Positions 1 through 56,925 of a stretch of DNA of 64,000 nucleotides are shown piece by piece (position 1 is the first letter of the stretch; each line of letters begins with the position of its first letter). The notes under the pieces are model-generated. The model was given only the letters and a program-made list of their open reading frames with translations, was not told where the DNA came from and did no database searches. Made by a program: the position numbers and the translations under genes. The stretch is taken from assembly GCA_044892525.1 (NCBI GenBank), contig CM097887.1, positions 23,126,001 to 23,190,000 of the forward strand, written 5' to 3'. The DNA is from Schmidtea polychroa. Taxonomy: Eukaryota.

Positions 1-3000
1 TTGCTCGTTGTTACCTACTTTCATGAGTTTGTGTAATGGTGTGTCTCCGTAATGATCTGTTATTGTAAATAATATTGGCCATTGGCTTTTGACTACTCGC
101 AATAATGGGTGTGTCCTTTCTCTATTTGCATAGTTTTCGATCATCGTTAATAATCCTCCTAATATTTCGAAGTCTAATCGATCTTTTGCCCATCCGGGTA
201 ACTTGATTTTTACTTCCTTTACAATTTTTTCCGCTTCCGATGGTTGTATGCCCAATCGTCCGATGATGGGTTCTGCAAGTTGTTGCATCATGTTTATTCT
301 GTAGGTTTGCGAACGTGTAGTTAATGTACAGCCTTCTGGTTGACTGGTGGCTGTTTTTGGAATTGATTTGCATCGTGCCACGTTTACGTATATTGGCCTG
401 GTGAATGGGTTATTTACCAATTTCACTCTTACGTTGGTTTCGCCTACGAATAGAATCTCATATGGCCCTTTTCCGTTGCGTTGTAACTTTTTTGTGGTTC
501 CTGGAATTAATTCTGGTGTTTCTATCATTACCCAATCACCTGTTTGAAAAGTGTGTTGCTTCACGTTTTTCTTTCGATCGTGTAAATCTTTATAACTTTC
601 CTGGTAGAACTTGATATTTAACCCCGCGGTTTCCCAAATTTCCTGCATTCTCTCTTTGAATTTCGTAACATAATCGTCTATCTCCATGTATTGCGATATT
701 GGTGGTTGGTATTCCAGGTCCATTGGCATGTTGCATTCTCTCCCGTACATTAATTTAAATGGGCTCATTTTTGTTGACGCATGAATTGACATTCTATAAG
801 CCATAAGACATAGATTTATGTATTCATCCCAATCTCGCTGGTGACGATCGACGTAATTTGACAACATTTGTATGAGTGTTCCGTTAAATCTTTCCGTCAT
901 CCCATTGGTTTGAGGGTGATATGGAGATGTTCTTAGTTTTGCGATTTTGAAATAGTTTGTTACTTCGTTCATTATCTCGCTCATGAAATTAGTTCCTTGA
1001 TCTGTTAATATTTGTTTTGGCGTTCCATATCGGCAACATATTTCTTCCACTAAGATTTTTGCGATTGTTTTAGCTTTTTGGTCTGGCATCGCGAATGCTT
1101 CTGGGAATTTCGTAAGAAAGTCTGTGATCACTAGAATGTAAACATTTCCTTTATCTGACTCTGGTAGTGGACCAACTACGTCCATGGATATCATCGTCAT
1201 CGGCTCTATTGGTACTGGCATTGGCGTTAAAGGCGCTTTCCATTTTGATCCAGTATTTTTCCGTGTTGCACATGTTAGGCAGTTTTTCACCCACTCGCTT
1301 ACGTCTTCCGTCAAGGTTGGCCAAAAATATTTTTGTTTCATTCTTGCTAACGTCTTTTTCGATGACATATGTCCTCCCAATCTACCATCGTGATATTGCG
1401 TTAGTAAATCCTTCCGTCGGTTTTCTGGCACACACATTAATCTCTTCTCTCCATCCATTATCAGTAACCAATCTTTCTCTATAATATATCGATGTCGGTG
1501 TTTATCCATATGTTCTTTTAATTTTTGATCTTTCGCATATACCTCCGTCTTTCCGGTTTTTACATAATCGATAATCCGTTTCAGTTCTACGTCTTCTTGT
1601 TGGTCCTTTCGCAATTGACAGAAATCTAAATCTTCCGCTACTATTAAGCATATGCGTTGCATTGCTGAATCCACCAAATCTGGGAAAATAAATCTTGACA
1701 TACAATCGGCGTTGGCATTTGCTCTTCCCGCTTTGAATTTTATAAATGGGGAGTATTCTTGCAATTGCATGGCCCATCTCATCAGTCTACTGGACGCTTC
1801 TTTATGTTGCCCTAACCACACTAATGGTTGATGATCTGTGGTTATACATATCTCATGTCCCCATAGTAAATATCGGAAGTGTTTGATAGCTTGTATTATA
1901 GCCAATGCTTCTCGTTCTGTTACCGAATAGTTCTTCTCGTGCTTTTTGAATGTTCGACTGTAATATCCAATTACTCTTTCTTTACCTTCGTCGTCTAATT
2001 GTCCCAAAATCGCGCCTGCCGCGTACCCGCTTGCATCCGTTGCTAATAGAAATGGTTTCTTGAAATCGGGGTGTACGAGGATAGGTGCTTTGATTAGTTT
2101 GTCTCTCAGCGTTTCAAACGCCTCTTGTTGTTCCTTCCCCCAAATGAACGAAATGTCTTTCTTTACTAATTCCTGGATTGGTTTTGCAATTCCTGCATAA
2201 TTTTTGATAAATTTGCGATAGTATCCGCATAATCCTAGAAATTCCTGAACTTGGGTGACAGTTTTCGGTGCTGGACATGTTTTTATTTTCTCAATGTTTC
2301 TTGGATCTGGCTCCTTTCCTTTAGCTGACACTATGTGTCCCAAAAACGTGACTTTTTCCTTTGCCCAATCGCATTTTGATGGTTTGAGTTTGAGTTTCCA
2401 TTGTCGTAATCGAATAAATTTCTTTTTTAATTCCCTGATTTTGGTGGTTGGGTGTACTTCTACTTCCTCAACATTCTTATCTGGGTATTTGATTCGGATT
2501 CGGTATCTCTCTTGGGTATCTTGTGACCACTCATGGTTTCGCCACTTCCCGATAATTTGCTCCAGTTGTTCCGGGTACCATTCGTTGTATTGTCGGTATT
2601 CTTCTATAGTTTTTACTATCTCTCTCAGATAATGGATATTATCCGATATTTTTAAAATGAAGTTAGCTAATGTTATTACTTGTCGTTTTTGATTTTTCGC
2701 TCCCTTTATTAGGATATCGCCTAATTGTTTATATCTTTCTCTCTCTTCTCGTTCTCTTGCTTCCGTCGCTTCCTCGCCGTCCATATCAGCATATTCACGT
2801 TCCTTTTTCCTCATTGCATGAATATGTCTCGCTTCATTTTCGCTTTCTGATGTGACATCCGTCTCGCTTTCGTCATCTGATGTCTGTTCCCTTGCTTCCT
2901 CTTCATATTCTGGAGGTCCCTCTTCTTCCTCCTCCGATTCACTTTCTGTCTCGCCAATGTCTGTTTCTACGAAGATTCCTTTCCGGATTTCCCATTCCTT

Positions 3001-4629
3001 ATTCTCTGCATTCCACACTCTTTCCCATGGGGTTCGTCTGCAGGATCTGGTACTTAGTTTCGTGATTTTTCCTTGTAGTTCCTTTTCTTTTAACCATTGT
3101 TGGTGGATTTCAACTATTTCTGTAGATTTTTGATATAACGTTTTCATCCGGTCTCGTATTTCTTTGTGATATGTTACATCTCTTGTTCGAAATTCATCCA
3201 TTGGTACTATCCTGATTATCTGATGATTGTCCCACATACCCATTTCGCTTAACGAGGTGTCGTCCTCCGCTCGTAATATTATTTTATCGTACATCATGAC
3301 TACATCATCTACCATACCATCACTACTTTCGCTACGTACCTTTTCCGTTATCTCTTGGTTTATCTTTGATACCAAGTCATCCACTGTACTCTGATTGCTC
3401 ATTTTTATTCGTCGTTTCTCTTCGTTCGGTAACCATATGGTTATTTCTAACTTCTGTGGTTGGGTCTCCTTTAACCTTCCATATTTGTGAATCAAATTTA
3501 TGGTTCTCCAATCACTCATTCGGAGCATTTCTGTATCTCGCAACCGGCTCATTAGTTCGTACATGGCTGGGGCTCGTCTGGTGATGAGTAAATCCCAGTT
3601 GTCTTCCACTTGTTCTTGAACTTGTTTGATCAGCTTGTCCAGGTTTCGTCTCAGAGTACATTGCTTTATTTGTTCTAATTTCAATTTGATATTAAAATCA
3701 TATTCCGCCTTGGCATCTTTAGCCCAATCGTAAAGGTTGGCTGGTTGTTTTTCTTTGTGCAACTTCAATATTTGCGTTTCTCCTGGCCATATTAGTGCGT
3801 CTACTAAGTGCATATCTGGTTTGATCTGTTCACCTTGGTATTGATACAGATATTCTTTCTTTCTCGAACTTCCCAAATGTTCTCGTATCCAATCGAAAAG
3901 TTCGTCGGTGACTGTATTTTTTATCCACATTCTTTCAAGTCCTCTACTCGTTCCGATTTTTATTACACACCGCGTGGTATCGGCCTGCTTCATTTTTTCC
4001 ATATACTTTTTTATAATTGATTTTTCCTCGTTTGGTATTAGATCTTTCTCGTTTCTTTCCAATTTCATCACTTTTTGTACGAATCGTCTGAATGGTATTA
4101 TATCGATGAACTCTTGGTTCCTCACTACTACTGGGAGTATTTCAGCTACTTGTTTTATCGCTTCCTCCCTCTCTTTTCTCAACTTTATTTCGATATCCCC
4201 GTCTTCACTTCCGCTGGTTGTCTCGCTTTCGCCTTCTTCCTCTTTGATTTCCCCTTTTGGAGGTTCGCTCATTTCATTTAGCTGTAGTATTTCTCCACCC
4301 AAACTGCTCACATAGTCTTCATCTGATGACGACGTACTTTTTATCCTTTTCATCATGTTAATGTGCAAATTTCTCATCCTTGGTACTCGCTTTAGTTTCT
4401 TTCTTTCAAATATCGTTGTTTCTTTTGATTCTAATTCTTGTAGCATTTGGTGGTTTAGTTGACTGGTTTGTTCCTTGCTCTTGTTATTTTCATCTTCTGT
4501 CTCGGTTTTCGCTTTATTATGTTCTTTTTCGATTTTATCTTTTATCTTTTTCCAGAATATTTTCTGAATTCTCTGGTTTCCTTTTAAAATCGTGGTTGAA
4601 TTCTCTGTTTTCATTTCCGTTGTTGTCTT
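1..4629 (-). CDS. pol: Pol-type polyprotein, 1543 codons open to window edge: acidic/coiled region, ubiquitin-like domains, RT C-terminal part only, RNase H, integrase, ankyrin motif
   Basis: Manual translation found no stop from 4629 to 1 (not in the ORF track because it has no stop in the window). Motifs: LKLKPSKC..FLGHIV, FLGLCGYYRKFI, LATDASG (RNase H), YHDGRLGGH..CLTC, SMDVVGP, LTDQGTNF, YHPQTNGMTERFN, GPY, DHYGDTPLH. Confidence 0.92.
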
Positions 4630-5923
4630 TTACTAACTTCATCATATTTATTCGCAATGCTTGTTCTTGTCGTTGTTGGTTGCGTTCTTGTTTTATCCTC
4701 TCTTCCTCGGCCTGTAGTCTTTGCCATTCTTGTACATGTTGATGCACTTCATAATTGTTGAGATTTTCGGTACTCCTCATCATACGTATATTCTGGGTTT
4801 GTTGTGGTGCTGATTCTTGTCTTGGTCTCATCATTTGTTGCATCATCTGTTTCATCTGCGAAATTTCCTGCATAACGTTCATTTGTTTTCCTTCGTTAGG
4901 GTTACTTTGTCGTTGCGGATTCGCCATATAATTATTATTTCGCGGTGGTGGTCGTTGTTGTTGGCCCCTTTCTCGGCAATCTCTGGAGATGTGACCTGGC
5001 TGACTACAGTTAAAACAACCTCTCAATTGGCATACATTTTCGGTATGTCCACGCCGTCCGCAACGATTACAATTTGAATTTCTATAACAATCTCTGTCCC
5101 AGTGTCCTGGTTTACCGCATGTTCGGCATTGCTTGTTATCGTTCAAATTTCGTCGATTATTAAAATTGTTCTCATTATTCAGGTTGTTGCGATTACCATT
5201 ATTCCCATTTGATCGTCCTTGTGGTGGTTTGAAAATTTGATGCGCTCCTGGTATAAATTGATTCATTTTCGGTTCTTGATTGTTGTTATCTCCGTTATCC
5301 GCTTTCGCTATTGCTGTCGCTATCCTCCCATCCTCTTGCATAATATTCACTTGAGCTGGAAGGTGGAGCTCGCATCTTGTAGCCCAATCTATGGCTTCCT
5401 CTAATGTTTTGCACATTTGACAACCTACTGAGGCTCTTACTTCTTCTCGGCGTAATCCCTCTATGAAATAACCGATCAGATTTTCCTCGGGTAATTTTCC
5501 ATTCATTGCTTTCTTCGCTAATCTCCGCAATTCACTGGCATACAATGTTATCGATTCGTTTGCTCTTTGTTTCCTATTTGCTAGTTCGCCCAACGCCTGG
5601 TTGATTGGCTTACTGGCTCCGAAGGTTTTCTTCAGGAATGTTTTGATATCTTCCCACTTTTCTAATTTCGTATCTCTCTCTTTAGCTTCTAAATATACTT
5701 CTAATGCGCTATCGCACAAAAACAACGGCATCCTTTTGCTAATTGCTTCGGGTGTCCATCCACACACTGTGATATACACTTCAAAATTAGTTATAAATGT
5801 TGCTAACTTGTTTGCATTTCCGTTGAACGGTTCTCCTCGGAACTTTTCTTTATACTCATCGGTTTTTACGGCATTCGTCATGATTGGTGTTCTAGATTCG
5901 TCTGTTTCTTTTAAATTATCCAA
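4535..5923 (-). CDS. gag: Gag (capsid-like region plus three CX2CX4HX4C knuckles and N/Q-rich linker); frame open upstream to 6219
   Basis: CRTCGKPGHWDRDC, CNRCGRRGHTENVC and CFNCSQPGHISRDC; retrotransposon gag-like RKQRANESITLYASELRRLA; overlaps the pol frame (+1) at 4535-4629. Confidence 0.92.
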   Translation of the reverse strand: MDNLKETDESRTPIMTNAVKTDEYKEKFRGEPFNGNANKLATFITNFEVYITVCGWTPEAISKRMPLFLCDSALEVYLEAKERDTKLEKWEDIKTFLKKTFGASKPINQALGELANRKQRANESITLYASELRRLAKKAMNGKLPEENLIGYFIEGLRREEVRASVGCQMCKTLEEAIDWATRCELHLPAQVNIMQEDGRIATAIAKADNGDNNNQEPKMNQFIPGAHQIFKPPQGRSNGNNGNRNNLNNENNFNNRRNLNDNKQCRTCGKPGHWDRDCYRNSNCNRCGRRGHTENVCQLRGCFNCSQPGHISRDCRERGQQQRPPPRNNNYMANPQRQSNPNEGKQMNVMQEISQMKQMMQQMMRPRQESAPQQTQNIRMMRSTENLNNYEVHQHVQEWQRLQAEEERIKQERNQQRQEQALRINMMKLVKDNNGNENREFNHDFKRKPENSENILEKDKR

Positions 5924-6219
5924 GGATGTGACTAAACTTTGGGCTGCTAGTTCTTCGGTTGACGTTGCTAAACTATTAGTTATGTCGGACAGACTTTCTC
6001 TGCTTCGAGATCGACTAGGGGTATATCCGAGATTTTCTTGGTCAAATATGGGTACTTGATTGGTTCTTCTTGCTCCTTGTGATATTCCTCTTTGATGTTT
6101 AATAGATCGTCCTCTTTTGAGTTGTTGTAATTTGTCTCCTGAAAATAATACGTCTCCTGACTTACTTGATGATCTGAGATGGGGTTTATCCGTGATTCTT
6201 TTCTTACGCTTCTTTGTAA

Positions 6220-6540
6220 TTAGCGGCTACTGAACCGGACGAGTTCGGATCTGATTACGTTTCCTTCGAAAAGTATCCTGTATGAATCTGCTACTGAGAT
6301 CCTGAGGAGATTTACTAGTCCTTGGCAGATGGCTGCTAATACTATGAGGTTGAATATATCGGTGATTCGTTCGAAGTTGGAGATGTCGCTATCTGTATCT
6401 TCTTCCGTTCTGGAGTCTTCCGGTTGCTGTGTTTCTCGGTGCGGGTTCTGAATGGATTTATTCTTGGTCGATTGTCGATTTCCTCGAATTCCTGTTGTGC
6501 AGGTTCTGGATTGTCTTGGTTGACTGGATTGGTTTGATAT
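6220..6540 (-). CDS. ATG-less ORF0 in the gag frame, starting at a splice acceptor and ending in a single TAA
   Basis: tttttttcattttAG|ATA TCA AAC at 6541/6540; open for 106 codons (includes hydrophobic DIFNLIVLAAICQGLVNLL); the same frame continues after the TAA into gag. Confidence 0.45.
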   Translation of the reverse strand: MSNQSSQPRQSRTCTTGIRGNRQSTKNKSIQNPHRETQQPEDSRTEEDTDSDISNFERITDIFNLIVLAAICQGLVNLLRISVADSYRILFEGNVIRSELVRFSSR

Positions 6541-7246
6541 CTAAAATGAAAAAATGATCTCGTGTTGCATTTGCTTACACGACTTCATCATTCTTTCTAC
6601 AACATTCAAACACAGACACCTTTTAGGTTTCTGTTTGTGCTTCCCCTATCTTTTGTGAAATCCTTTCCGCGGGTTATAATTTCCCATCAGCCCGTATTTT
6701 CCGTCGATTTTAAATTATCTATATGGGGTAGTAACAATTATCTATAAAGTCGTAATAATTATCTATTCGTTATCAATTATAGTAAAAATAGGTCGTTGTC
6801 GGTCTCTGCTTATTACCCCCCTTCGTTTTCCTCTTCCTTTGCGCTGTTGTCGCTATTTTACTTTTCATATTTACTATTATCCCACTCGGTTCTACTCTGG
6901 AACCGATAAAAATACATTTTCCCGGTTTACCCAAAAAAAATTCCGTAGAGTTTCTCTACTTCACTGGGATCCCTTTAATTAGCTAGTTACTTTCTTCTTC
7001 TACTCATTATCTCCATTTCACCTATTCTTTATTTTCTCATTATTTCTTTAATTCATTTTCTTCTTCTCCTTCCTTTTTCATTATAATTTTATTATCTTTT
7101 CCCCGAGCTCGTTTATTTCCTCTCTAAACTCAAATTTTCGTAATTATATTCAATTTGTTTCTAGCTAGCTTTAATATTCCCTTTCTCTATTAATTTAAAT
7201 ATTATCTCATTGTAGCTTAACTGCTATTTCTCATTTTTCTAGGCCT

Positions 7247-7465
7247 TTACGACTGGCTGGCACTATTCAACAGCTCAATCTTCTTCCTTCTGATCGGTTG
7301 GACTATTCAACAACTCGATCTTACGACTGGCTGGCACTATTCAACAGCTCAATCTTCTTCCTTCTGATTGGTTGGACTATTCAACAACTCGATCTTACGA
7401 CTGGCTGGCACTATTCAACAGCTCAATCTTCTTCCTTGACCGGCTGGACTATTCGACAGCTCGGC
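7247..7465. repeat. 74-bp tandem repeat, about 3 copies (dimer of ~37-bp subunits), in the Gypsy leader
   Basis: ttacgactggctggcactattcaacagctcaatc... starts at 7247, 7321 and 7395. Confidence 0.9.
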
Positions 7466-7838
7466 TTTAATATTCCCCGCTCTGCATGCTTCTACTTCTC
7501 TTTTCTTCTTTTACCCTAGATTACCATTTTCTCTGTCTACTTTTAATTTGTCGACTTAATCTTTACCGCTTGAGAGTGTTTCCCCTTTCCCCCCTTGCTC
7601 GAAACGCACGACGATCGCGATGATCCGTTTCCACATTAGCATGGTGATCAGTCATGCCGCAGAAACTTCTCATCATATGCGATGGTACCCCGCCCTACGC
7701 TTCTTACTTGGGTTGATCAGTTATCCCCTCCCAACGGGTTCTTGCAATAAAACGTACCGCCCGAAGGTGGCTCGGTTTGTACCCCTGCAGCCTATATTGG
7801 GACTAATTCCACGTTAGTTTTATTCTTCTCCATTCGAT

Positions 7839-7848
7839 CTCATAACCA
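7839..7848 (-). promoter_or_regulatory. Candidate primer-binding site (TGGTTATGAG)
   Basis: Lies 4 nt after a candidate LTR end ...TTTAATTACA (7853) that follows AATAAA motifs at 7901-7910. Confidence 0.3.
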
Positions 7849-8034
7849 AAGATGTAATTAAAAGAGATAAAATATCTAATTCATAACAACAAAAAAAATT
7901 TTTATTTATTCTGAGACTAAAATTAAACATTAAAGTTACTTCACACTTAAAAGTACATATATTCGTATTCAAAGGTCTTTTATCAATTTAGTGCGCATAT
8001 ACGTCACTGCATCTGGTTAGTTGTTTTAATCACC

Positions 8035-8510
8035 TTAATAAACCATATGGGTTTCTTTTATCCCATTTTTATATATTGTACATCGCTTCAGATCTTTCAC
8101 GCACTCTTCACAATGACTGAGGTGTCCACAAGGTAAGAATAGTGTGCGTATAGGGCGAAGATTGCAAGACAGACAGGTTCGCAATTTGGTGAGTTTCTCT
8201 TGTATCTTTTGTTCGATTGCCTCTGATATTGTATGTAGTTGATCTTTTATTCGCTCGTATTCTAGATTTAGGGCCGGGTTTTTAGTCGTTTTAGGTACCA
8301 TTGATATACTGTTTCGTGATTTATCTTTTCATCTGAGTGGCTTAAACCTGCGGCCAATAACACGTGATTAGGTACGACTGGTGTATGTCCGATTGCTTGG
8401 AGTAAAATGCTGTTGATTCGCTTTCTTTTTTGTATGAGTGTTTTAATAGGGTCGTTTTCTATATTAATGAAATTAATTAATTGTTGCATCTGTTCTGCGA
8501 ATTCCGTCAT
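8035..8510 (-). pseudogene. IAP-type RING finger protein, frameshifted (about 158 aa if repaired)
   Basis: ORFs 8268-8510 and 8035-8301 join by restoring one A in the A-run near 8282. CLSC-x11-CGH-x3-CEEC-x6-CTIY matches IAP RING spacing with the last Cys changed to Tyr; C-terminal aromatic residue present. Confidence 0.8.
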
Positions 8511-9377
8511 GTCTATTGAGAAAAGGAAAAAAAAATTTTTTTTAATAATATACAGCTAATTAATGGTTATTTCATCAAACATTTTCTTTTAATTCGTTAT
8601 AATTTATTTTATTTTTATCCTATTTCCCGATTATTTACTTTATTTATATCTTTAATTCTATTATTTTCTAATCGTAATTTCTAATAGGATTCGATAGGCA
8701 TTAGTCAATTTGCATTCGCCCACTAATTGACATCGATAATCCCGGTGAATTCACATTATTCGACAGAAATTCCATATTACATCCCGGCTGAGCCCCCAAA
8801 AATTATGCTGGGGTAGTGCTTGGTTGACTCTGCTCAATCTACATCCTTGTCTAGGGGGTGCGTGTCCATATCATTACGCTACATACGCCCGTGTCAACCC
8901 GGAGCAGGACCCCGCACAACTTGCCCTCCAACATAGCACCCGCGAATTGCTTCACGTTGGAAATGTGCTATGCCGGCGAGACTCCAGTAAGCAGGTGAGC
9001 CCCTACCTTAGGACTACTCCTTACTGAGGCCTCGACTTCCCTTTTCTGACGGCCGATGGAAGGACTTACGTCTGTTTACCTCATCAGATTCTCTCTCTAC
9101 CCTGACCCATTATTCGGCACAAAATTGACCACTGCCTCTCGAACTCAAAATTTACTCTCGCTTTGCGAACACTACTCTGAACCTTTACCACAGCTAGTTA
9201 GATTTAAACAACAACAAAAATTTAACCAAAAATTTCTTTATTTTATTATCATGATACATTAGATAATTATACACTACATAACAAGTACACTTGGTGGAGA
9301 ATAGATTAAGAAGAAAAGGAGTCATGATAGTATATTTGTCCATTCGCACCCTGCACGGTTGTATTGTGTTGCGGCCC

Positions 9378-10121
9378 TCACTTCTCCCACCCCGCATCCG
9401 CCAATAGCTCATCTAGATCAAAAAACTCGGAGGCATTCTCCTCCCAAGTCACACCAGCGGCAGATATGATTCGCCCTGGGATTCCACCGGTCAGATCGAT
9501 CGTTACGGGTGGATCATTCGAAGCACTTGGGTGGTTGGCAGATAGTTCTCGTTGTTTGACAATTGCTCGTTCACGTTGGCGCTTCTTACGCTCCGCTCTG
9601 GACAATTGGCGACGCTTAGGTTTTGAGGGGTTAGCAGACAAGATTGCCGAGGACGTCGTGGCTGAATGCGATACCTTGCCAGTGCCGGGAGTAGGTACGT
9701 CCGATGGCCTGGGGGAGAGGTCGGCCTCCACACATTCCTGACAAGATCTTTTCGACAAGGGTGGCGAACTAAATGAAGGTTCATGGTGAACGGGGAAGAC
9801 ATTGTCCGCTTCTTTAATCGGAATACTAACGATCCTTCGGGTTGTAGCGGCTTGAACGTAAACTTTATGTAGAGCTTCGGACTGCTCTTTGATTAGGCTA
9901 CGCTGAGCTCTACTTTCGCTTATCAAAGCATCGCGACAATGCTCACTGCGGTACAATTTCTTTTGAACTTCCTTCATTTGTACTGGGCTAAACCATGTAC
10001 CTTCCAGATCGTCGATTTTCTTTTTATATCGACCGATCTGGGCCTGTAATTCTCGGATCACGGTGTTTTTGTCGGCACAGGAGAAACAGGGTTTGAGCGA
10101 CGGCTTCGAGCTTGGCAACAT
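9378..10121 (-). CDS. Accessory ORF (247 aa): CxxC plus coiled coil, Ser/Pro linker, basic NLS-like segment, acidic-aromatic C-terminus
   Basis: Intact ORF with ATG 9 nt after acceptor tttctttgttacAG (10131); KPKRRQLSRAERKKRQRER; EENASEFFDLDELLADAGW; AATAAA at 9237-9247. Confidence 0.75.
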   Translation of the reverse strand: MLPSSKPSLKPCFSCADKNTVIRELQAQIGRYKKKIDDLEGTWFSPVQMKEVQKKLYRSEHCRDALISESRAQRSLIKEQSEALHKVYVQAATTRRIVSIPIKEADNVFPVHHEPSFSSPPLSKRSCQECVEADLSPRPSDVPTPGTGKVSHSATTSSAILSANPSKPKRRQLSRAERKKRQRERAIVKQRELSANHPSASNDPPVTIDLTGGIPGRIISAAGVTWEENASEFFDLDELLADAGWEK

Positions 10122-11986
10122 TTTTGATAACTGTAACAAAGAAACAATGAGAATAAGAATTAAGATCGGCGATTTCTACTAAACTAGTATGGACACAATC
10201 ATTGGTTGATTTTCGTAAAATTAAGTAAAAGGAAAAAAAAATAAATAAATGATATAGTTTCGTTAGAAATAGTGTTAATTGCATTCAGTGAATTTTTAGA
10301 TGTCCATTTAGGGTGTAGGAGAAATTAACATTTGAATAATACTCTGCCAAAAATTTATGGTTATACTTAAAATATCCATTACCTACTGTTATCTGAGATT
10401 TTCAAATATTTACGTGAAAAATGACTCGCGAATGTATTGACATAATGGACATTAGATTTACAGTTTACCATAGAAATGGTTTAGGAAGAATCAGGAATGT
10501 TTGCATGATTGAATAATTAATGTTCATTTTTGCACATAGCTTTTCGACTACAGATATTTATTTTTGAAAAACGTAAAACAAAATTCTCCAGTGCCGCGTG
10601 AACGATCCTTAAATTAATGGCCCCAAATTGTAACTCATATTTGAATATTAAATTCAGAAAACCCGTTTAATCAACGTGCTACTATTAGATATTTAATAAG
10701 TCGCGTATGATCAGATTTCTATCCCCACCCTAAAAATCAATTTATTTATTTTTCATTATGGAGTCTACTGGTGCAATCAACCTATAAAATTTAGTCGATT
10801 ATTAACAGTCATCCGACGACGCATGAATCACTCGTAGAAATCATTAGCCACATGAATCGGAAAGATACGTATCGATTGGAGATAATTATGTCATGTGCGT
10901 GTGCCTCAGTTTTTGTTCTCACCGTCATTAGCGGGCTGGGAAAAGGATGCATGCGGCATATGTCAATGTGTATTTATATGTGGCAATGCGTGTGATTTGC
11001 CTTGTCTGCTTTCTTACTATCTATGTCAACGGGTTGCAGCTGATCGTCTCACACTGCGAGTTGGAATTATTTTAGTTATTCAATATGTTCTCTATGAGTA
11101 ATTCTCACCGCGCATGAACGTTGGAATTTTATTCTCGCGATGTGCAGTTCCCTCCGTTTTTCAACTTGGATGTTGTGATTTCGGGGAATATTCCCAGCAG
11201 TTCATTCAACAGAAATCTCTCTTATTTTGGTCGAAAGAGTCATTTATAGAAAGAACCTCGCGTTGCCGCTATCGTGGATTTTCAGGAGCAATGGAAAAAT
11301 TACAGCGTTTGTTGACAATTATATTTATACTAAAAATCTTTTGTTGAATAAATCTTCATTTATGCTCTCTATATTCTGATTTCGCATTTGATGAACATAT
11401 TTGTACGCGGTAAGTTTTGATAGAAAAATATTTTTCTGCTAAAAGATAGAATGTCAGTTGATGTCAATATACGATTTCTGATGTCAGTGTGATGTTTACT
11501 AAGAGTTTGTAGCCACCTCAGTCATTTTCAATTCAGATTTGCTCTACTTTTCAATATTGGAATATATTCCTCTGTACTTTAAACTCGTGCTTGCAGCATT
11601 ATATTTCCCTCAGCGACGGACCCGTGAGGAAGCCCCCACATTCCGGCCCACGTCAGCTGCGTGATTGAAGAGATCCACACCCGCCGGCTGAGCTCCCGAA
11701 GGCTCCTCATACCATGGCGTGGGTCTCCTCAACTCCACGTTTCTCAAAACAAATAATTTTAGCATAATCAATACGTTCGATGACAAAACATAACATAAAT
11801 ATTTATATATCATTAACCTTTAAATTAATTTACGAACTATAAAATCATTAAAAATTGAAATCGAATGGAGAAGTTTTTATTCAAAGGTTAGGTTAATATA
11901 ATAGAAATATTTAATCCTTCAAAAAACAAATTTCATAACAGCAATACATCCTTACTTCATTATTTGAAAAATTCTGTAGTTCCAAA

Positions 11987-12549
11987 GGCTGAGCCGAAAT
12001 ATAAACTGATCAAATCGGTTATATGAATGAGTAGTCTATAGAACTGTCCCTAATAGTCGTCTGAGTATGGTTTGGTTTTCCTGATTGTCGAGTACCTATA
12101 ATTGGTTTGGTTTTAACATTTTTATATAGTTAATACTATTCTTACCTATAATTGGTTTGGTTTTAACATTGACTATAGTGAATTTGCTGTTTACTTATAT
12201 AGGTATTTTTTGTTTATGCGGACCAATCAGAATTGAGTACCGCCTTATTTTATTCATTTAATTTATTTTCCTTGTTTTTGGGTTATTTCTTCTTATTTTC
12301 TTTATTAAAATTATGTTTTTATTTATTTTCCTTAATTTCCTTATTATCTACTACCTTTTACGTTATTTTTCGTCATTCTATTGTCCTATTTAATTGTTCT
12401 TATTTTTATGTTTTTTGTTTTAATTCTTATTTTCTAATTATTGCTTTTCTTATATTCTATTCTCTTTTATTCCTCAATCTATTTATTTTATTTTATATTT
12501 TTCTTTAGTTAAGTTTAACCTGATTTCCCAACTATCTTTCGGCTCAGCC
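11987..12549. mobile_element. MITE-like element with 13-bp terminal inverted repeats
   Basis: GGCTGAGCCGAAA at 11987 and its reverse complement ending at 12549; non-coding interior with a duplicated 29-mer; no clear TSD. Confidence 0.55.
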
Positions 12550-13359
12550 CAACACCTGGGAAGAAGACGCAAGAGACTTATTCGATCTTGATGTGATCTT
12601 CGTCGGAATTTCCCCGACAACTCTATAACAAGTGTGTGAATGTCTTAACGTTGTGATTGTACGAGTAGATTACCCGTTGTTGAATTTTTCTTTTGTGTGA
12701 TATTAGGACTGTAGTGTGAAGCTACCCCAGGAGCTGGTGATGATCGATTTCGTAATAATGTGTATTTAAAATAAATCTTTTGCGTTAACTAGTAAAGCGA
12801 GTTTGCGAATTATTATGCTGCATTTGTGTTGTAAGATTGAAATGGGTGAAAATGGTATATATAGGTTTTACTATTTCTAATCATATTTCTCAAGTTACCT
12901 CGTACGCTGGTTACGCCAGGCTGTATGCGGCGAGGTAATTTCCCATGAAGGTTTCATATCACGAAATTTTGAGATCTGGGTCCTTCAAGGCTTTTAACCA
13001 ACATTTATTATTAATTCATGTATATATAATTATATATTTATTTATTCATATTTTTATTTATTTGAGTTGCTACCCATAGGGTTCTTATTACAAACGTATT
13101 TGTATTGGAATTTTTACTATACTATTTTATATTATATTTTATCGAATTTCTGATTTAAATTTTCTAAACTAGTTTTCTATATGAATTGCTTATGAATTAA
13201 TCAATTATTGTTTTATGGGTTTTGACTATTTTGGTTTTAATTTATTTTGTTTACGTTTATTATTTATTTAATATTTTGGTAAGATTTACAGGTACACAAA
13301 ACAAATAATTGAGGATACTAAATTTTATTTATTTATCACAATTCTTAATGTTTTATTTT

Positions 13360-13640
13360 CTCTCTGGTAGCTGGTCACGACTTTCTTGAGCTCCGATTCT
13401 TCTCCATTGATGAAGTTGATATAGTTCCAGAAGAAAAACAGTTAACGACTCGCTGTATTTCGAAAGCAATGCAACCTATTTCACAGGTAATGGACATTTT
13501 TGTAGATAATAACCCTGACGAAAATCAATGCTTAACGGTTACGCGAACTATTGATAGCGCTATCATTTGCTATAAAGAAATTTATATGGAAAAAATGCTG
13601 CACGAGTTCAGCAAACTTTAAACAAGTTTTTAACTGCAAC
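13360..13640 (+). pseudogene. Possible pogo/Tigger transposase C-terminal relic
   Basis: TIDSAIICYKEIYMEK resembles the CYxEIYxEK tail of Tigger-type transposases. Confidence 0.35.
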
Positions 13641-13894
13641 ATTACGAGAACCAAACCAGAATCAGTCTACAGAAACGGTAATCGATTTAGAATCGTCAAG
13701 TTCATCAAATTAGAATTAAGAAAAAGAAAGTTACAAACTGTTTCTGTGTAGGGTTTAACACACGAATATATTCGTCGAATACTATTCGAATAATCTCTAC
13801 AGTAGATGGATTGGGCACCGCTAGCACAGTACCCCCCGCCCCCCGGTCGTAAAAAATTAAAAAAAATTTTTTTAAAGGTCAAATTTTAAACAAA

Positions 13895-14270
13895 GACATA
13901 TGACTCATCAAGGTCATTGAAACAAAGACCATGACTCATCCAATGACTCATCAAATTTCTCGAGGTCATTTAAACAAAGACCATGACTCATCAAGGTCAT
14001 ATGACTCATCAAAATTTTCAAGGTCATTTAAACAAAGACCATGACTCACCCAAGGTCATATGGCTCATACTATGACTCATCAGGTCATATGATTCATACT
14101 ATGACTCATCAAGGTCATTTTCAAGGTCATATGCCTCATCAAGGTAAAAAATTCCCAAGGTCATTTTCAAGGTCACCTGAGTCATCCTATGACTCATCAA
14201 GGTCATTTTCAAGGTCGCATGACTCATCCAAGGTCATATGAGTCGTCGCGATGAGTCATCAAGGTTATAT
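13895..14270. repeat. Subterminal array of ATGACTCAT and (TC)AAGGTCA motifs
   Basis: At least ten ATGACTCA/TGAGTCA motifs interleaved with at least ten AGGTCA motifs, often as ATGACTCATCAAGGTCAT; TTCCCGCCAA (E2F-like) at 14326. Confidence 0.9.
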
Positions 14271-16892: not shown

Positions 16893-18601
16893 TAGATTTT
16901 GTAGTTCAGAAGAAGAGGACATTACTGACAAGAGTACAGAGGCAGAAGATAACTGTAGTTCCAGTTATCAAGACGAAATTGCACCTGTTCAAATACCAGA
17001 CCCACTCGACCTACCATGGAGTTTTTCTTTAAGGTCTCATCCAGCGTTTCTTTTTTAAGGCGATTCTGGTATAAAGCTTGACAATTTAAACAAAGATAAC
17101 CCTATCCAACTGTTTGAATGTTTTTTTTTACTGACGAGCTTATAAATAAAATCGTTGTTGAAACAAATCGTTATGTGGAGCAGTATCTGAACTATAATAA
17201 AGACAATATAAAAAATCAATTTCGAGTAAAAGAATGGACAGCAACTATTATTATTCAGGGAATCTGCATAAATCCAGAGTGTAGATTATATTTTACGAAA
17301 CGAGAGAGCATCGAAACACCATTGCTTTGTAAACAACAAGGAGTTTGATGCTAATTCACCAAACCGAAGATTATTCAAAATTCAGCCGTTTATGTTCCTA
17401 ATCAAAAGATTTCCATTGACGAATCATTGATTGGGTGTAAAGGCCGGCTCGCCTGGAAACAATATATTCCCTCAATAAGAAAGAGATTTGGAATGAAAAT
17501 ATTTGTATTGTGCGAAAGTGAAACTGGTTATGTATACAATTTTTTTATTTATACTGGCTCGAGTACCCAGCATGGGAATTCCATTTACCTGATGAACCTG
17601 TATTTGGTAGAGTCGTATTGGAGTTATCACATTCGCTTCTGAACAAGGGTTATTGTTTATACGTTGATAATTATTATACCAGTCCCGATCTTACTGATAA
17701 ATTAATAAAAAGACGAATAGATTTTGTTGGAACGATGAGAGTAAATAGAAAGGGAATTCCAACTGAAATAAAATCTAAAAAATTACAAAAAGGAAATCAT
17801 ATTGCAATGTACAGAAGAAAACAAATGATAATGAAATGGAAGGATAAAAAAGATATAGTAAAATATAGTAATAGCACGATTCATGACGATAGTAAAAAAT
17901 TAGTAAAAGGAAAAAGCGGGTTCAAGGTGGAAAAACCGACTGTAGTGTTAGATTATAACTCAAGAATGGGAGACGTAGACTTGGCCGATAATATGCTCCA
18001 TTTTTACACATCGGCAAGATGTCGCCTAAAAAAATATTATATGAAAATATATAGGCATTTTTTAAATGTGGCTTCTCTTAATTCATTTATTTTATACAAA
18101 AAGCTAGGAGGACGGAAAAACCGCCTCAACTTTCTCTTAGATTTTTGGGAACAAATCGTAGAACAATATGCCACAGAAAAGGAGGTTTGTGGAAGAAGAC
18201 CAAAAATACCGAGACCATTGCGATTCCTTGAACGACATTTCATTGGTCTAATACCCCAAACTACGAAAGAAAACCCCACAAAACGTTGTGTAGTATGTTC
18301 CGAAAATGGGAAAAGGAAAGAGAGCAGGTATTGATGTGCTGATTGTTATACTGGACTTTGTCCAGCAACATGCTTCAAAATTTATGATACGAGAGACGAA
18401 AGAAATTGACCTAAATTGACGAAATATGTTAAAAATATATCATAAATATTACTTTTGTTAACATATTATCTTAATAAATATCATCGAATAAGATATTTTA
18501 TTTTTGTAACACTATGCCCAAGATGTATATATACGCTAGCGGATAACAAAACTCGCCGCTGAGGAGCGCATTTCGTTTGACGAAATAAACCACTTAAGAG
18601 G
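16893..18601 (+). mobile_element. piggyBac-family element, 5'-truncated, transposase with stops and frameshifts
   Basis: FFTDELINKIVVETNRY, SIDESLIGCKGR, LYVDNYYTS, VGTMRVNRKG, YNSRMGDVDLAD, C-terminal RCVVC..KESRY; right end ...AAGAGG followed by TTAA at 18602. Confidence 0.9.
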
Positions 18602-22100: not shown

Positions 22101-23526
22101 AACCAAAGTTGTTGATTCAAACTTCACCGTAAGCATAATCACAATTTAAATTAACTCTATTGTAACGCAAATTTAATAAAAACAAATATGTGTAAAATTT
22201 TGCAATGTTTCTTTGGATGTTTAAAAATATTAAATTTCAAAATAAAATATTTACTTTTTATAAAATTATTATTCCTATGTATATTGTTTTATTTCTAATG
22301 GGTGTAATGTCAGATTTAGTGAATATTATTTAGCGTTAAAAGGAATTTCAAAGTGAAGTAATAAAAGTGTAATGTTATTTCATGCTGTGTTTCGGGAAAA
22401 ATTTCATCTACTTTAAATAGCTGCTATCCAAATATTTTAAAAGCCTAATTACGGTATCGGTGGTAACTAAATGGTTTCAAATCGACAAAGTTAAAATTCA
22501 AACTTATGGAAAATGTTTATTACATCAAGGTCTTGTTTTGCTTCTACTACTAATCTCCACTTTGTATTGCATGATATTTTCTTGCACTATTAATAAATGA
22601 CCTGATTAAGCGGAATTTAGGAAATATAAGTTAAACATTCCAGAAATACTATAAAGCTAGAAGTCAAATTAGAGATATTGAAGCAAATTGGTCATGGGCG
22701 GCAAAATTATCAAGATTCGTTAAAGAATGAAGAAATTGATAATCTCTTAGTAACACCACTATAATATATGTAGTAAAATGGTTAAACTGGAGTCGCTTAT
22801 AATCATTTGAATAGAAGAACAAAATTATAAGTGGTATCAAATTGTTTATTGTTTTTAATTGTGATGATTTGATTAGTGTGGCGCATTTTCCGACTCATAT
22901 AAAATCTGTATCATTTTCCGTATCAATTGATCTTTTAATCTTTCTCAATAAAAGATCAATTAGATTTTGTACTATTATTCTTTCGCATACTTACCTTGCT
23001 TCTCTAGCACATTGATCATGACTATTTATGGTGTTTTTTTATTTTGGACATTTTGTAAACATGCTATCATTTTGACTTGATTGAATTTGAATTTTTGTTT
23101 AATTTTTGGGTTGCGTATAGTTTTAATTGGAAAGATTATATCTATTGGTATTGATTGGGTACTTTATAAATATTCATAGGTTGAATAAATTGAAAAGAGA
23201 AAATGATTCCAAATGATCATGGAAACCGTCAAAAGTTGCATTTAGAGATACTAAACAATTTATTGACTATATGTGATATTAAACCAGTTAAAAATTCGTT
23301 AAAAACATGTAAAATTATCGATTTGTAATTATGTAATCGTTTGTTAAAAAAACAAAACATTGAAATTAAATTTATCAATAAATGAAAACAATAAACTTTT
23401 AAAATAAATTTGTACATTTAGCATTCAAAATTGCATATAATAGCCAAATTAAATACATTATTGAATCAATATATTAATAAAATTTTTGATGATTTTAAAA
23501 ACATTTATTGAATTAAATATAAAATA

Positions 23527-23727
23527 TTAATTTATTGAATGATTTATTGAATGATTTATTGAATGATTTATTGAATGATTTATTGAATGATTTATTGAAT
23601 GATTTATTGAATGATTTATTGAATGATTTATTGAATGATTTATTGAATGATTTATTGAATGATTTATTGAATGATTTATTGAATGATTTATTGAATGATT
23701 TATTGAATGATTTATTGAATGATTTAT
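23527..23727. repeat. 12-bp tandem repeat (TTATTGAATGAT), about 16 copies
   Basis: Identical units without spacers; the flank is homologous to 20625-20760. Confidence 0.95.
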
Positions 23728-23953
23728 CGAATGGCGCCTTGATAACATTTTAAAATTATATATTTCTTATAATTTCAGAGTTAATAATTAATATTTATAC
23801 CGCTAAGAGTTCAGCGATGATGGGAATTGATAAATGAAAATATAACACAAGTCAATCGATTTACTAGTAAACATACTACATATTTTGCAAGAGTTATATA
23901 ATCTTAAATTTTACAATTCCTATCAATTTTCAAAGATTTATAATTCTCTATTG

Positions 23954-27103: not shown

Positions 27104-56925
<29,822 letters not shown>

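What the first reader, a model, noticed from the sequence alone, without database searches (positions are those of the whole stretch)
6541..10132. Complex-retrovirus-like expression design: each ORF has its own acceptor, and the accessory ORFs have their own poly(A) signals
Seen on the minus strand: pyrimidine-tract acceptors at 10131 (9 nt before the ATG, phase 0), 8513 (2 nt before the ATG) and 6541. Consensus donors GTAAGT at 9069 and GTAAGA at 7707 each lie in a GC-richer island. AATAAA occurs at 9237-9247 and 7901-7910, right after the two accessory ORFs. Established: MMTV sag and HIV nef are LTR-overlapping genes expressed from spliced RNAs. Inference: this Gypsy makes subgenomic mRNAs for LTR-borne accessory genes by alternative cis-splicing or SL trans-splicing.
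Basis: partly seen in the sequence, partly recalled or inferred. Interest (0 to 1): 0.72.

Follow-up and report, generated by a model that had tools for sequence, protein, structure and literature searches.

The report
Giant retrotransposon's spliced accessory gene cassettes
A decayed copy of a giant, virus-like jumping gene of a type known from planarian flatworms carries two extra genes ahead of its core genes, each with its own splice-entry and end-of-message signals, which suggests that they are made as separate short messages, although no RNA evidence could be obtained.

Summary
The motifs are at the stated places. The element is an internally deleted, Burro-like giant Gypsy (gag with three zinc knuckles, weak ubiquitin-like and ankyrin-like matches). 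Two signals beat chance: the acceptors at 10131 and 8513 are the only 2 of 36 strong acceptors in the window that open a frame of 80 codons or more, and both poly(A) doublets top 46 AATAAA sites for T-rich downstream elements. The donors are chance-level motifs, and the 6541 tract is one arm of a hairpin with no ATG for 659 nt. ORF-A (247 aa) has 10 distant homologues; several keep an arginine-rich motif, and three gene models enter it four codons before Met. ORF-B is a frameshifted cIAP-type RING gene. Best reading (0.45): two cassettes made as short, spliced, separately polyadenylated mRNAs; the donors 173 and 199 nt after each poly(A) signal may hold it shut for genomic RNA, as in HIV-1. 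LTR location is unresolved and splicing is not shown. The scan earlier noted a Burro element elsewhere in this genome (e1-7879936), not this design. Upstream accessory ORFs and an IAP RING are already reported for Burro.

The parts
12145..12227 (-). Candidate upstream promoter and first donor: ATTGG (CCAAT box) at 12227, TATATAAG at 12201, GTAAGA at 12145
11601..11750 (-). GC-rich structured island with a GGCTCAGCC motif (also at 11994, 8793, and reversed at 12549); preceded by AATAAA at 11881
   Evidence: z -2.64, 4 of 200 shuffles as good; the 8-mer GCTCAGCC occurs 3 times on the minus strand of the window, all here, plus 1 reversed
10922..10978 (-). Candidate mini-exon for ORF-A: TATAAATA 10978, ATG 10928, phase-0 donor GTGAGA 10922 (792-nt intron to 10131)
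   Evidence: Sequence; one of 6 GT donor-like sites in the interval; inference only
10131..10165 (-). Polypyrimidine tract and acceptor AG of ORF-A, phase 0, 9 nt before ATG
   Evidence: Tied second of 381 YAG; unstructured, z +1.98; homologous gene models share a 4-codon leader before Met
9378..10121 (-). ORF-A, 247 aa, open: two long helices (15-98), arginine-rich helix 169-185, SIM-like VTIDLT at 206, acidic-hydrophobic end
   Evidence: 10 distant homologues; AlphaFold helices H15-40, H46-98, H175-195, pTM 0.31; motif scan
9210..9289 (-). Poly(A) site of ORF-A: four TGTA, AATAAA doublet 9247/9242, TTTTTGTTGTT at 9220
   Evidence: Ranks 3-4 of 46 by downstream T; 2 of 399 AATAAA in the window have four TGTA upstream
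8782..9200 (-). GC-rich island with hairpins and donor GTAAGT at 9069, 173 nt after the poly(A) signal
   Evidence: z -2.91 for 9050-8901; donor reached in 1835 of 5000 shuffles
8513..8545 (-). Polypyrimidine tract and acceptor AG of ORF-B, 2 nt before ATG; TATAAATA at 8648 and ATGCAAAT near 8715 lie upstream
   Evidence: First of 381 YAG; 0 of 5000 shuffles; unstructured, z +1.19
8035..8510 (-). ORF-B: unknown helical N-terminal part and C-terminal IAP-type C3HC4 RING; frameshifted near 8280 and with a non-Cys residue at the eighth zinc-ligand position in this copy
   Evidence: zf-C3HC4_3 E 1.2e-9; best solved relatives cIAP1/cIAP2 RING, E 4e-9; frames
7885..7910 (-). Poly(A) site of ORF-B: AATAAA doublet 7910/7906, TTTTTGTTGTT at 7895; about 50 nt before a possible LTR end (ATTACA, 7853)
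   Evidence: Ranks 1-2 of 46 by downstream T; terminus scan
7480..7850 (-). GC-rich island with donor GTAAGA at 7707, 199 nt after the poly(A) signal
   Evidence: 584 of 5000 shuffles; HIV-1 spacing is 195 nt (PMC3694450)
7247..7468 (.). Three 74-nt tandem repeats in the gag leader
6530..6610 (-).
   Evidence: z -3.41, 0 of 200 shuffles; best of 50 windows scanned
4535..6226 (-). gag frame: Retrotrans_gag and three CCHC knuckles; first ATG at 5881; 5' part interrupted in this copy
   Evidence: Pfam E 2e-10 and 2.8e-11; three knuckles
1..4629 (-). Polyprotein frame: ubiquitin/SUMO-like segment, deletion junction near 2420 (no protease or YxDD motif left), end of RT, RNase H, integrase, ankyrin-like start at the window edge
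   Evidence: PF11976 E 0.001, below gathering score; RVT_1 positions 176-205 only; RNase H and rve; DARPin matches E 0.04-0.9; loose ends at 2412/2419

Best explanation
The stretch is the 5' region of a Burro-like giant Ty3/Gypsy element, here a decayed, internally deleted copy. It holds two accessory cassettes of the same build: a polypyrimidine tract and AG just before the ATG, the ORF, a 3' UTR of about 125-135 nt, an AATAAA doublet, a T/GT-rich element, then a GC-rich island with a 5' splice site. In active copies each ORF is most likely made as a short mRNA: a small upstream exon (from the TATA/donor at 12201/12145 or from a promoter in the preceding island) is cis-spliced to the acceptor, and the RNA ends at the cassette's poly(A) site. 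Genomic and gag-pol RNA must read through these sites; U1 snRNP bound at the donors 173 and 199 nt downstream would hold them shut, as the HIV-1 major donor does. ORF-A is probably an RNA- or DNA-binding regulator (coiled coil plus arginine-rich helix), ORF-B an IAP-type ubiquitin ligase. Shown: the motifs, their rank against chance, the domains, the homologues. Inferred: use of the sites, cis-splicing, U1 suppression, protein functions. Whether the cassettes lie in a long LTR or between LTR and gag is open.
For: Acceptors: only 2 of 36 strong YAG in the window open 80 codons or more, and they are these two; shuffles 0 of 5000 and 120/32 of 5000; both unstructured. Poly(A): top 4 of 46 by downstream T, shared TTTTTGTTGTT, four TGTA before 9247, near-equal UTR lengths. 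Homologues: in 3 of 10 ORF-A gene models (P0005, P0008, P0009) unrelated upstream sequence is followed by the same four residues and then Met, which is what a phase-0 acceptor 12 nt before ATG would give. Donor spacing 173 and 199 nt vs 195 nt in HIV-1. Burro features: three CCHC knuckles, weak PF11976 and ankyrin matches, upstream accessory ORF and IAP-type domains in the literature. One contig each in X1 and X5 joins 8781 to 7778, linking the upstream island to the gag leader (only 23 letters on the short side).
Against: No spliced or polyadenylated RNA was seen. The donors are chance-level motifs, and their spacing test is post hoc (1835 and 584 of 5000, joint about 0.04); the next AATAAA candidate (11881) has no such donor. 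The gene models are automated predictions, which favour strong acceptors whether used or not. Planarian-type AT-rich DNA has many T-runs; 10131 only ties with 12556. ORF-B is broken here. Flatworm SL trans-splicing uses the same kind of acceptor (PMC12582326). TGTAAT at 8781 and ATTACA at 7853 bound the ORF-B unit like a separate element.
Confidence: 0.45

Rival explanations
1. Operon-like expression by spliced-leader trans-splicing: a read-through precursor is cut at each poly(A) site and the flatworm SL, which ends in AUG, is added at 10131 and 8513. At 10131 the SL AUG would be in frame with ORF-A.
For: Flatworm SLs end in ATG and share acceptors with cis-splicing (PMC12582326 passages). 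Phase 0 at 10131. Between the TATA box at 8648 and 8513 the only donor-like site is 10 nt after the box, which resembles an outron.
Against: At 8513 an SL AUG would be out of frame and meet a stop at the third codon (sequence). The gap between the ORF-A poly(A) site and 8513 is about 730 nt and holds a consensus donor. The host's SL use was not tested.
Confidence: 0.2
2. One reading: both ORFs lie in a long LTR (for example 13092 or 10330 to 7853), are duplicated at both ends like sag or nef, and all three ORFs, gag included, are reached by alternative splicing 9069>8513 and 7707>6541.
For: TGTAAT at 13092 and ATTACA at 7853, followed by TGG after 4 nt, would give a 5.2-kb LTR; the 7906 doublet then sits where an LTR poly(A) signal should, with a donor 199 nt downstream as in HIV-1.
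Against: Other 6-nt terminus pairs fit as well (8781/7853; 12918/11715) (and sequence). 6541 is a weak, base-paired site with no ATG for 659 nt. In this model the 7906 site is the LTR's own signal, not ORF-B's. An RNA spliced 9069>8513 from an upstream promoter would carry ORF-A first.
Confidence: 0.15
3. One or both cassettes are foreign pieces (a solo LTR or captured mini-gene of another element) carried by a sub-lineage of copies, with signals that serve their original element.
For: The ORF-B unit is bounded by TGTAAT (8781) and ATTACA (7853); a contig form that skips 8780-7779 is in X1 and X5; this genome has other LTRs with captured genes (earlier notes e1-7907883, e1-8073268; unchecked).
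Against: No target-site duplication flanks 8781-7853. The two cassettes share one build and UTR length. IAP-type RING/BIR cargo is a described Burro trait. No such termini bound ORF-A.
Confidence: 0.15
4. The signals are chance products of AT-rich spacers and the ORFs are translated, if at all, from unspliced RNA.
For: AATAAA occurs 46 times on this strand in 13.5 kb and donors are at chance level.
Against: The acceptor-plus-ORF and downstream-element ranks and the shared junction in 3 of 10 homologous gene models.
Confidence: 0.05

Closest known systems
Burro / GYPSM1 giant Gypsy-like elements of dugesiid planarians (Jurka 2007; Grohme 2018; reviewed in PMC6431247, section 7 read in full)
   Same: Retrotrans_gag with three CCHC knuckles, weak PF11976 Ubi2/SUMO-like match between gag and pol, ankyrin-like segment after integrase, tandem repeats, accessory ORF upstream of the polyprotein, apoptosis/ubiquitin cargo.
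   Different: This copy lacks protease, most of RT and any BCL2/env/dUTPase segment (deletion near 2420); gag and pol frames are offset; the upstream ORFs are an arginine-rich protein and a RING gene, not MATH/TRAF. The review says nothing on splicing or poly(A) sites of Burro accessory ORFs.
Burro1 B-IAP (Lee et al. 2026, Dev Cell; seen only as passages in PMC13465017)
   Same: An IAP-type RING carried by a planarian giant retrotransposon.
   Different: B-IAP is described as RING plus BIR; ORF-B shows no BIR match and stands upstream of gag as its own cassette. How B-IAP is expressed could not be read.
Complex retroviruses: HIV-1 and foamy virus poly(A) suppression by U1 at the major donor (PMC3694450 passages); Rev/Rex arginine-rich regulators (recalled)
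   Same: Donor about 200 nt after a poly(A) signal; small regulator-like ORF with an arginine-rich helix (one homologue matches Pfam REV at E 0.0013, below cut-off).
   Different: Two internal poly(A) sites upstream of gag, accessory genes 5' of gag rather than 3' of env, Ty3/Gypsy pol. No homology to Rev beyond composition.
MMTV sag and HIV nef (LTR-overlapping genes; recalled)
   Same: Possible only if the LTR is long and ends at 7853.
   Different: sag and nef end at the LTR poly(A) site and have none of their own; ORF-A has its own; LTR location is unproven.
Plant Ogre elements (PMC6431247 passage; intron recalled)
   Same: Extra ORF in a long Gypsy element.
   Different: Unrelated proteins and lineage; no separate poly(A) cassettes known to me.

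Membership tests
Ty3/Gypsy LTR retrotransposon | gag, then RT - RNase H - integrase order | tested here: met
   Retrotrans_gag, RVT_1 end, RT_RNaseH, Integrase_H2C2, rve in this order
Ty3/Gypsy LTR retrotransposon | Two LTRs with TG...CA ends, PBS and PPT | tested here: inconclusive
   The 3' end lies outside the window and no genome is held; three terminus pairs compete
Burro / GYPSM1 | Gag with retrotrans_gag and two or three CCHC knuckles | tested here: met
   feature from PMC6431247
Burro / GYPSM1 | Ubi2/SUMO-like (PF11976) segment between gag and protease | tested here: inconclusive
   PF11976 E 0.001, 19.3 bits vs cut-off 23.8, cut by the deletion junction
Burro / GYPSM1 | Ankyrin repeats and BIR in the polyprotein | tested here: inconclusive
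   DARPin matches E 0.04-0.9 on the last 18 residues before the window edge; no Pfam hit
Burro / GYPSM1 | BCL2-like, env-like, protease and dUTPase segments in one ORF of about 5000 aa | not testable with these tools
   This copy is deleted there; contigs of X1 and X7 go on with other sequence at 2412-2419 but cannot be fetched
Burro / GYPSM1 | Accessory ORF upstream of the polyprotein | tested here: met
   ORF-A and ORF-B; different cargo from the MATH/TRAF ORF in PMC6431247
Burro / GYPSM1 | Total length over 30 kb, sequence identity to Burro1-4, planarian host | not testable with these tools
IAP-type RING ligase (cIAP1/2, B-IAP) | C-terminal C3HC4 RING with eight zinc ligands | tested here: inconclusive
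   PF13920 above cut-off, cIAP RING best; seven ligands present, eighth position not Cys, gene frameshifted in this copy
IAP-type RING ligase (cIAP1/2, B-IAP) | BIR domain in the same protein | tested here: not met
   No Pfam match on the 80-aa N-terminal part at E up to 1; best PDB match E 1.1
Rev/Rex-type regulators | Arginine-rich RNA-binding motif | tested here: met
   10 R/K in 17 residues in ORF-A; 9-11 in P0003-P0006; compositional only
Rev/Rex-type regulators | Leucine-rich export signal and sequence or fold homology to Rev | tested here: not met
   No NES-like pattern in ORF-A; no PDB sequence match to the profile at E up to 1
Rev/Rex-type regulators | Binds a structured element in its own RNA and promotes unspliced RNA | not testable with these tools
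   Needs binding and reporter assays
LTR-overlapping genes (sag, nef) | ORF duplicated in both LTRs and ended at the LTR poly(A) site | tested here: inconclusive
   LTR limits unresolved; ORF-A has a separate poly(A) site

The most novel reading that the evidence does not exclude
ORF-A is a Rev/Rex-like regulator evolved independently in a Ty3/Gypsy lineage: made early from a short spliced mRNA, it binds a structured RNA element of the leader (for example the 6610-6530 hairpin) through its arginine-rich helix and shifts output from short cassette mRNAs to full-length RNA by controlling poly(A) read-through or export, while interchangeable cassettes such as the IAP RING supply host-modulating cargo. 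That would be an early/late switch of complex-retrovirus type outside Retroviridae.
Probability: 0.15. Interest if true: 0.8.

Novelty: new variant of a known kind. Interest (0 to 1): 0.45.

Why it matters
Burro elements are abundant in planarian genomes, and Burro1 is reported to protect stem cells through an IAP-type cargo (PMC13465017 citing Lee 2026). How such elements express accessory genes placed before gag is not described in the papers I could read. If the cassettes are separately spliced and polyadenylated, the element can express host-modulating genes without making genomic RNA, even from deleted copies like this one, and it needs a poly(A)-suppression device like that of HIV-1. The ORF-A family gives a concrete candidate regulator, and the sites named here give primers-level predictions for RACE and long reads.

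Tried and rejected
No whole genome is held, so other copies and the 3' LTR could not be read. Sequencing runs: no RNA holder listed among 15 rows; this is no evidence on expression. Four runs were laid (X1, X8, X7, X5; all contigs): neither predicted junction is among the 15 of 79 joints shown, 64 being hidden; X8 and X7 are RNA only by guess. Summed contig depth differs 10- to 100-fold between blocks in X1, X5 and X8 (high over gag-pol, 6469-7854, 8779-9240, 11551-12474; lower over ORF-A; lowest over ORF-B, 10165-11550 and 12475-13398); the tool warns that this is no copy number, so I use it only as a lead that the cassettes vary between copies. The X8 profile follows the X5 profile, so it says nothing on subgenomic RNA. 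Word-based homologue searches found nothing for ORF-A alone (0 of 885 candidates) or the ORF-B N-terminal part (0 of 49). No related loci in viral contigs (gag) or metagenome contigs (ORF-A; gag); the ORF-A alignment was too variable for that search. ESM Atlas: nothing at 0.9 for ORF-A; bacterial hits for the ORF-B N-terminal part had low recognition and were set aside. Folds: ORF-A model against viral structures, 0 of 373 matches at E 0.001; ORF-B N-terminal model (pLDDT 60) best Z 5.8, generic helical hairpins, so a CARD-like reading found no support. No Rfam match in 5800-13800, no tRNA gene in the window to test a PBS. A PBS at 11714 or 7848 could not be assigned to a tRNA. Solo-LTR reading of 8781-7853: no target-site duplication. 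Grohme 2018 and Lee 2026 are not held; either, or their supplements, may already describe these ORFs or their transcripts. Searches for a prior description gave none; most subscription papers are outside the library.

Full report
What is there. The minus strand of 1-6226 is a Ty3/Gypsy gag-pol. The gag frame has Retrotrans_gag and three CCHC knuckles. The next frame (4629 to the window edge) has a long unannotated part with a weak PF11976 Ubi2/SUMO-like match (E 0.001, below cut-off), then only the last 30 model positions of RVT_1, RNase H, integrase and an ankyrin-like start at the edge. No protease or YxDD motif is left, and contigs of runs X1 and X7 leave the window's sequence at 2412-2419, so this copy is internally deleted. 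This domain set matches the Burro/GYPSM1 giant elements of planarians as reviewed in PMC6431247 (section 7 read in full), which also reports an accessory ORF upstream of the polyprotein in a Dugesia element and suggests that these elements are proviruses. I call the element Burro-like; several defining features could not be tested.

Observation check. The acceptors of the two accessory ORFs beat chance: 8513 is first and 10131 tied second of 381 YAG sites by pyrimidine content; local shuffles reach them in 0 of 5000 and in 120 or 32 of 5000; over both strands of the window 36 sites reach 16 of 20 pyrimidines, 6 have a near ATG, and only these 2 open 80 codons or more. The poly(A) signals also stand out: the four hexamers of the two doublets are the top 4 of 46 by downstream T content, both are followed by the same 11-mer, which occurs only twice on the window's minus strand, the 3' UTRs are 130 and 124 nt to the first hexamer, and 9247 has four TGTA upstream, as 2 of 399 AATAAA in the window do. 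The donors do not beat chance as motifs (11 seen, 8.9 expected). The third acceptor is weak: 13 of 20 pyrimidines, no ATG for 659 nt, and its T-run forms the 3' arm of a long hairpin (z -3.41, 0 of 200 shuffles, the best of 50 windows scanned), whereas the two accessory tracts are unstructured (z +1.19, +1.98).

The two proteins. ORF-A (10121-9378, 247 aa) has no Pfam match. phmmer over 1.84 billion representatives found 8 relatives at E 3e-8 to 2.5e-4 and a profile added 2. All 10 are unnamed database proteins, and 9 of them are chimeras in which the ORF-A-like part is fused to unrelated host domains; this is what automated gene models do with a repeat that sits in introns. The family keeps two long helices (model pLDDT above 90 over much of 21-90, pTM 0.31) and, where the models extend far enough, an arginine-rich stretch: 10 R/K in 17 residues in ORF-A, 9-11 in P0003-P0006. 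One homologue matches Pfam REV at E 0.0013, below cut-off, which I read as composition. A SIM-like motif (label recalled) is in ORF-A and 2 of 10 homologues; ORF-A has no leucine-rich export pattern. In 3 of 10 models, three unrelated upstream sequences are followed by the same four residues and then Met. The simplest cause is a phase-0 acceptor 12 nt before the ATG, like the phase-0 acceptor 9 nt before the ATG here; these are predictions, not transcripts. ORF-B (8510-8035) ends in a C3HC4 RING closest to cIAP1/2 (E 4e-9). It is frameshifted near 8280 and its eighth ligand position is not Cys; contigs of three of four runs differ in length from this copy at the break, in 13-40% of the laid depth. 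No BIR was found. Burro1 is reported to carry a RING-plus-BIR protein that protects stem cells (passages in PMC13465017 citing Lee 2026; the paper itself is not held).

Do the cassettes belong to the element, and where is the LTR? One contig each in X1 and X5 joins 8781 to 7778, a form without the ORF-B unit that links the upstream GC island to the gag leader; only 23 letters support the short side and the ends are not those of an intron. An 8-mer recurs four times in the GC-rich parts from 12549 to 8793 and nowhere else on the scanned strand. The LTR cannot be placed: TGTAAT at 13092 or 8781 pairs with ATTACA at 7853 (5.2 kb or 0.93 kb, no target-site duplication for the latter), and a shorter LTR ending in CA-TGG at 11715 also fits, with CCAAT and TATA boxes at 12227/12201, a donor at 12145, AATAAA at 11881 and a structured island after it. 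I give the long-LTR and the internal placements about equal odds.

How it most likely works. Each cassette reads: tract and AG, ORF, short UTR, poly(A) doublet, T/GT element, GC island with a 5' splice site. I infer short, cis-spliced, separately polyadenylated mRNAs. The donors lie 173 and 199 nt after the two signals; in HIV-1 the major donor 195 nt downstream suppresses the 5' poly(A) site through U1 (PMC3694450 passages). A donor falls 50-300 nt downstream in 1835 and 584 of 5000 shuffles (joint about 0.04, tested after the fact), and the next candidate signal, 11881, has none. This is a hypothesis with modest support. Spliced-leader trans-splicing is the main rival: flatworm leaders end in ATG and share acceptors with cis-splicing (PMC12582326 passages); it fits 10131 in frame and 8513 out of frame. 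A foreign origin of the ORF-B unit and pure chance are less likely.

What is not shown. No transcript was seen; splicing, cleavage, U1 control and protein functions are all inferred. Other copies could not be read as sequence, so conservation of the signals within this genome is untested.

Novelty and score. Burro elements, upstream accessory ORFs and IAP-type cargo are known. I found no description of separately spliced and polyadenylated accessory cassettes, or of an arginine-rich regulator, in searches, but the two key papers were not available. Papers seen: PMC6431247 (section 7 and passages), PMC8532177, PMC13465017, PMC11410931, PMC13238120, PMC12582326, PMC3694450, PMC8797187 (passages); sag, nef, Rev/Rex, SIM and TGTA labels are recalled. 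Verdict: new variant of a known kind, interest 0.45; the boldest open reading, a Rev-like switch in a Gypsy element, has probability 0.15 and would deserve 0.8.

Noticed in passing
window 6264-6315 (-): One X1 contig skips a 52-nt stretch that begins GT and ends AG on the element's strand (checked), close to the size of a 45-nt host intron at 33668-33624. It could be a copy made from spliced RNA or a plain deletion.
   Followed up: partly
window 6530-6610 (-): Long hairpin just upstream of the gag region (z -3.41); candidate packaging or regulator-binding element.
   Followed up: partly
window 12549, 11994, 11693, 8793: A GGCTCAGCC motif recurs only in the GC-rich parts of the element's 5' region; possible transcription-factor site.
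   Followed up: partly
window 10227-10242 and 8521-8536: An identical 16-nt T-rich tract lies at the ORF-B acceptor and about 100 nt upstream of the ORF-A acceptor.
   Followed up: no
window 12093-12120 and 12143-12170: 28-nt direct repeat just after the TATA box; only the first copy on the minus strand ends in a consensus donor.
   Followed up: no
   Followed up: partly
window 27104-50110 (-): Exons of a host AGC-type kinase (Pkinase and Pkinase_C; S6K-like by recall) spread over 23 kb with repeat-filled introns.
   Followed up: partly
window 44832-45548 (-): Intronless frame joining a Ras/Rab-family piece (E 5e-18) to a proteasome-subunit-like piece (E 0.0025); looks like a mosaic of captured mRNA fragments.
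   Followed up: no
window 35029-36468 (+) and 17522-18334 (+): Pogo/Tigger-type (DDE_1, HTH_Tnp_Tc5) and piggyBac-type (DDE_Tnp_1_7) transposase frames.
   Followed up: no
window 52579-55500; 23470-23793; 13876-14260: A 21-nt satellite with strong GC skew, a 12-nt tandem array, and a cluster of ATGACTCA-rich repeats.
   Followed up: no
P0001, P0004: Two ORF-A homologues carry a PPPY motif that ORF-A lacks.
   Followed up: no
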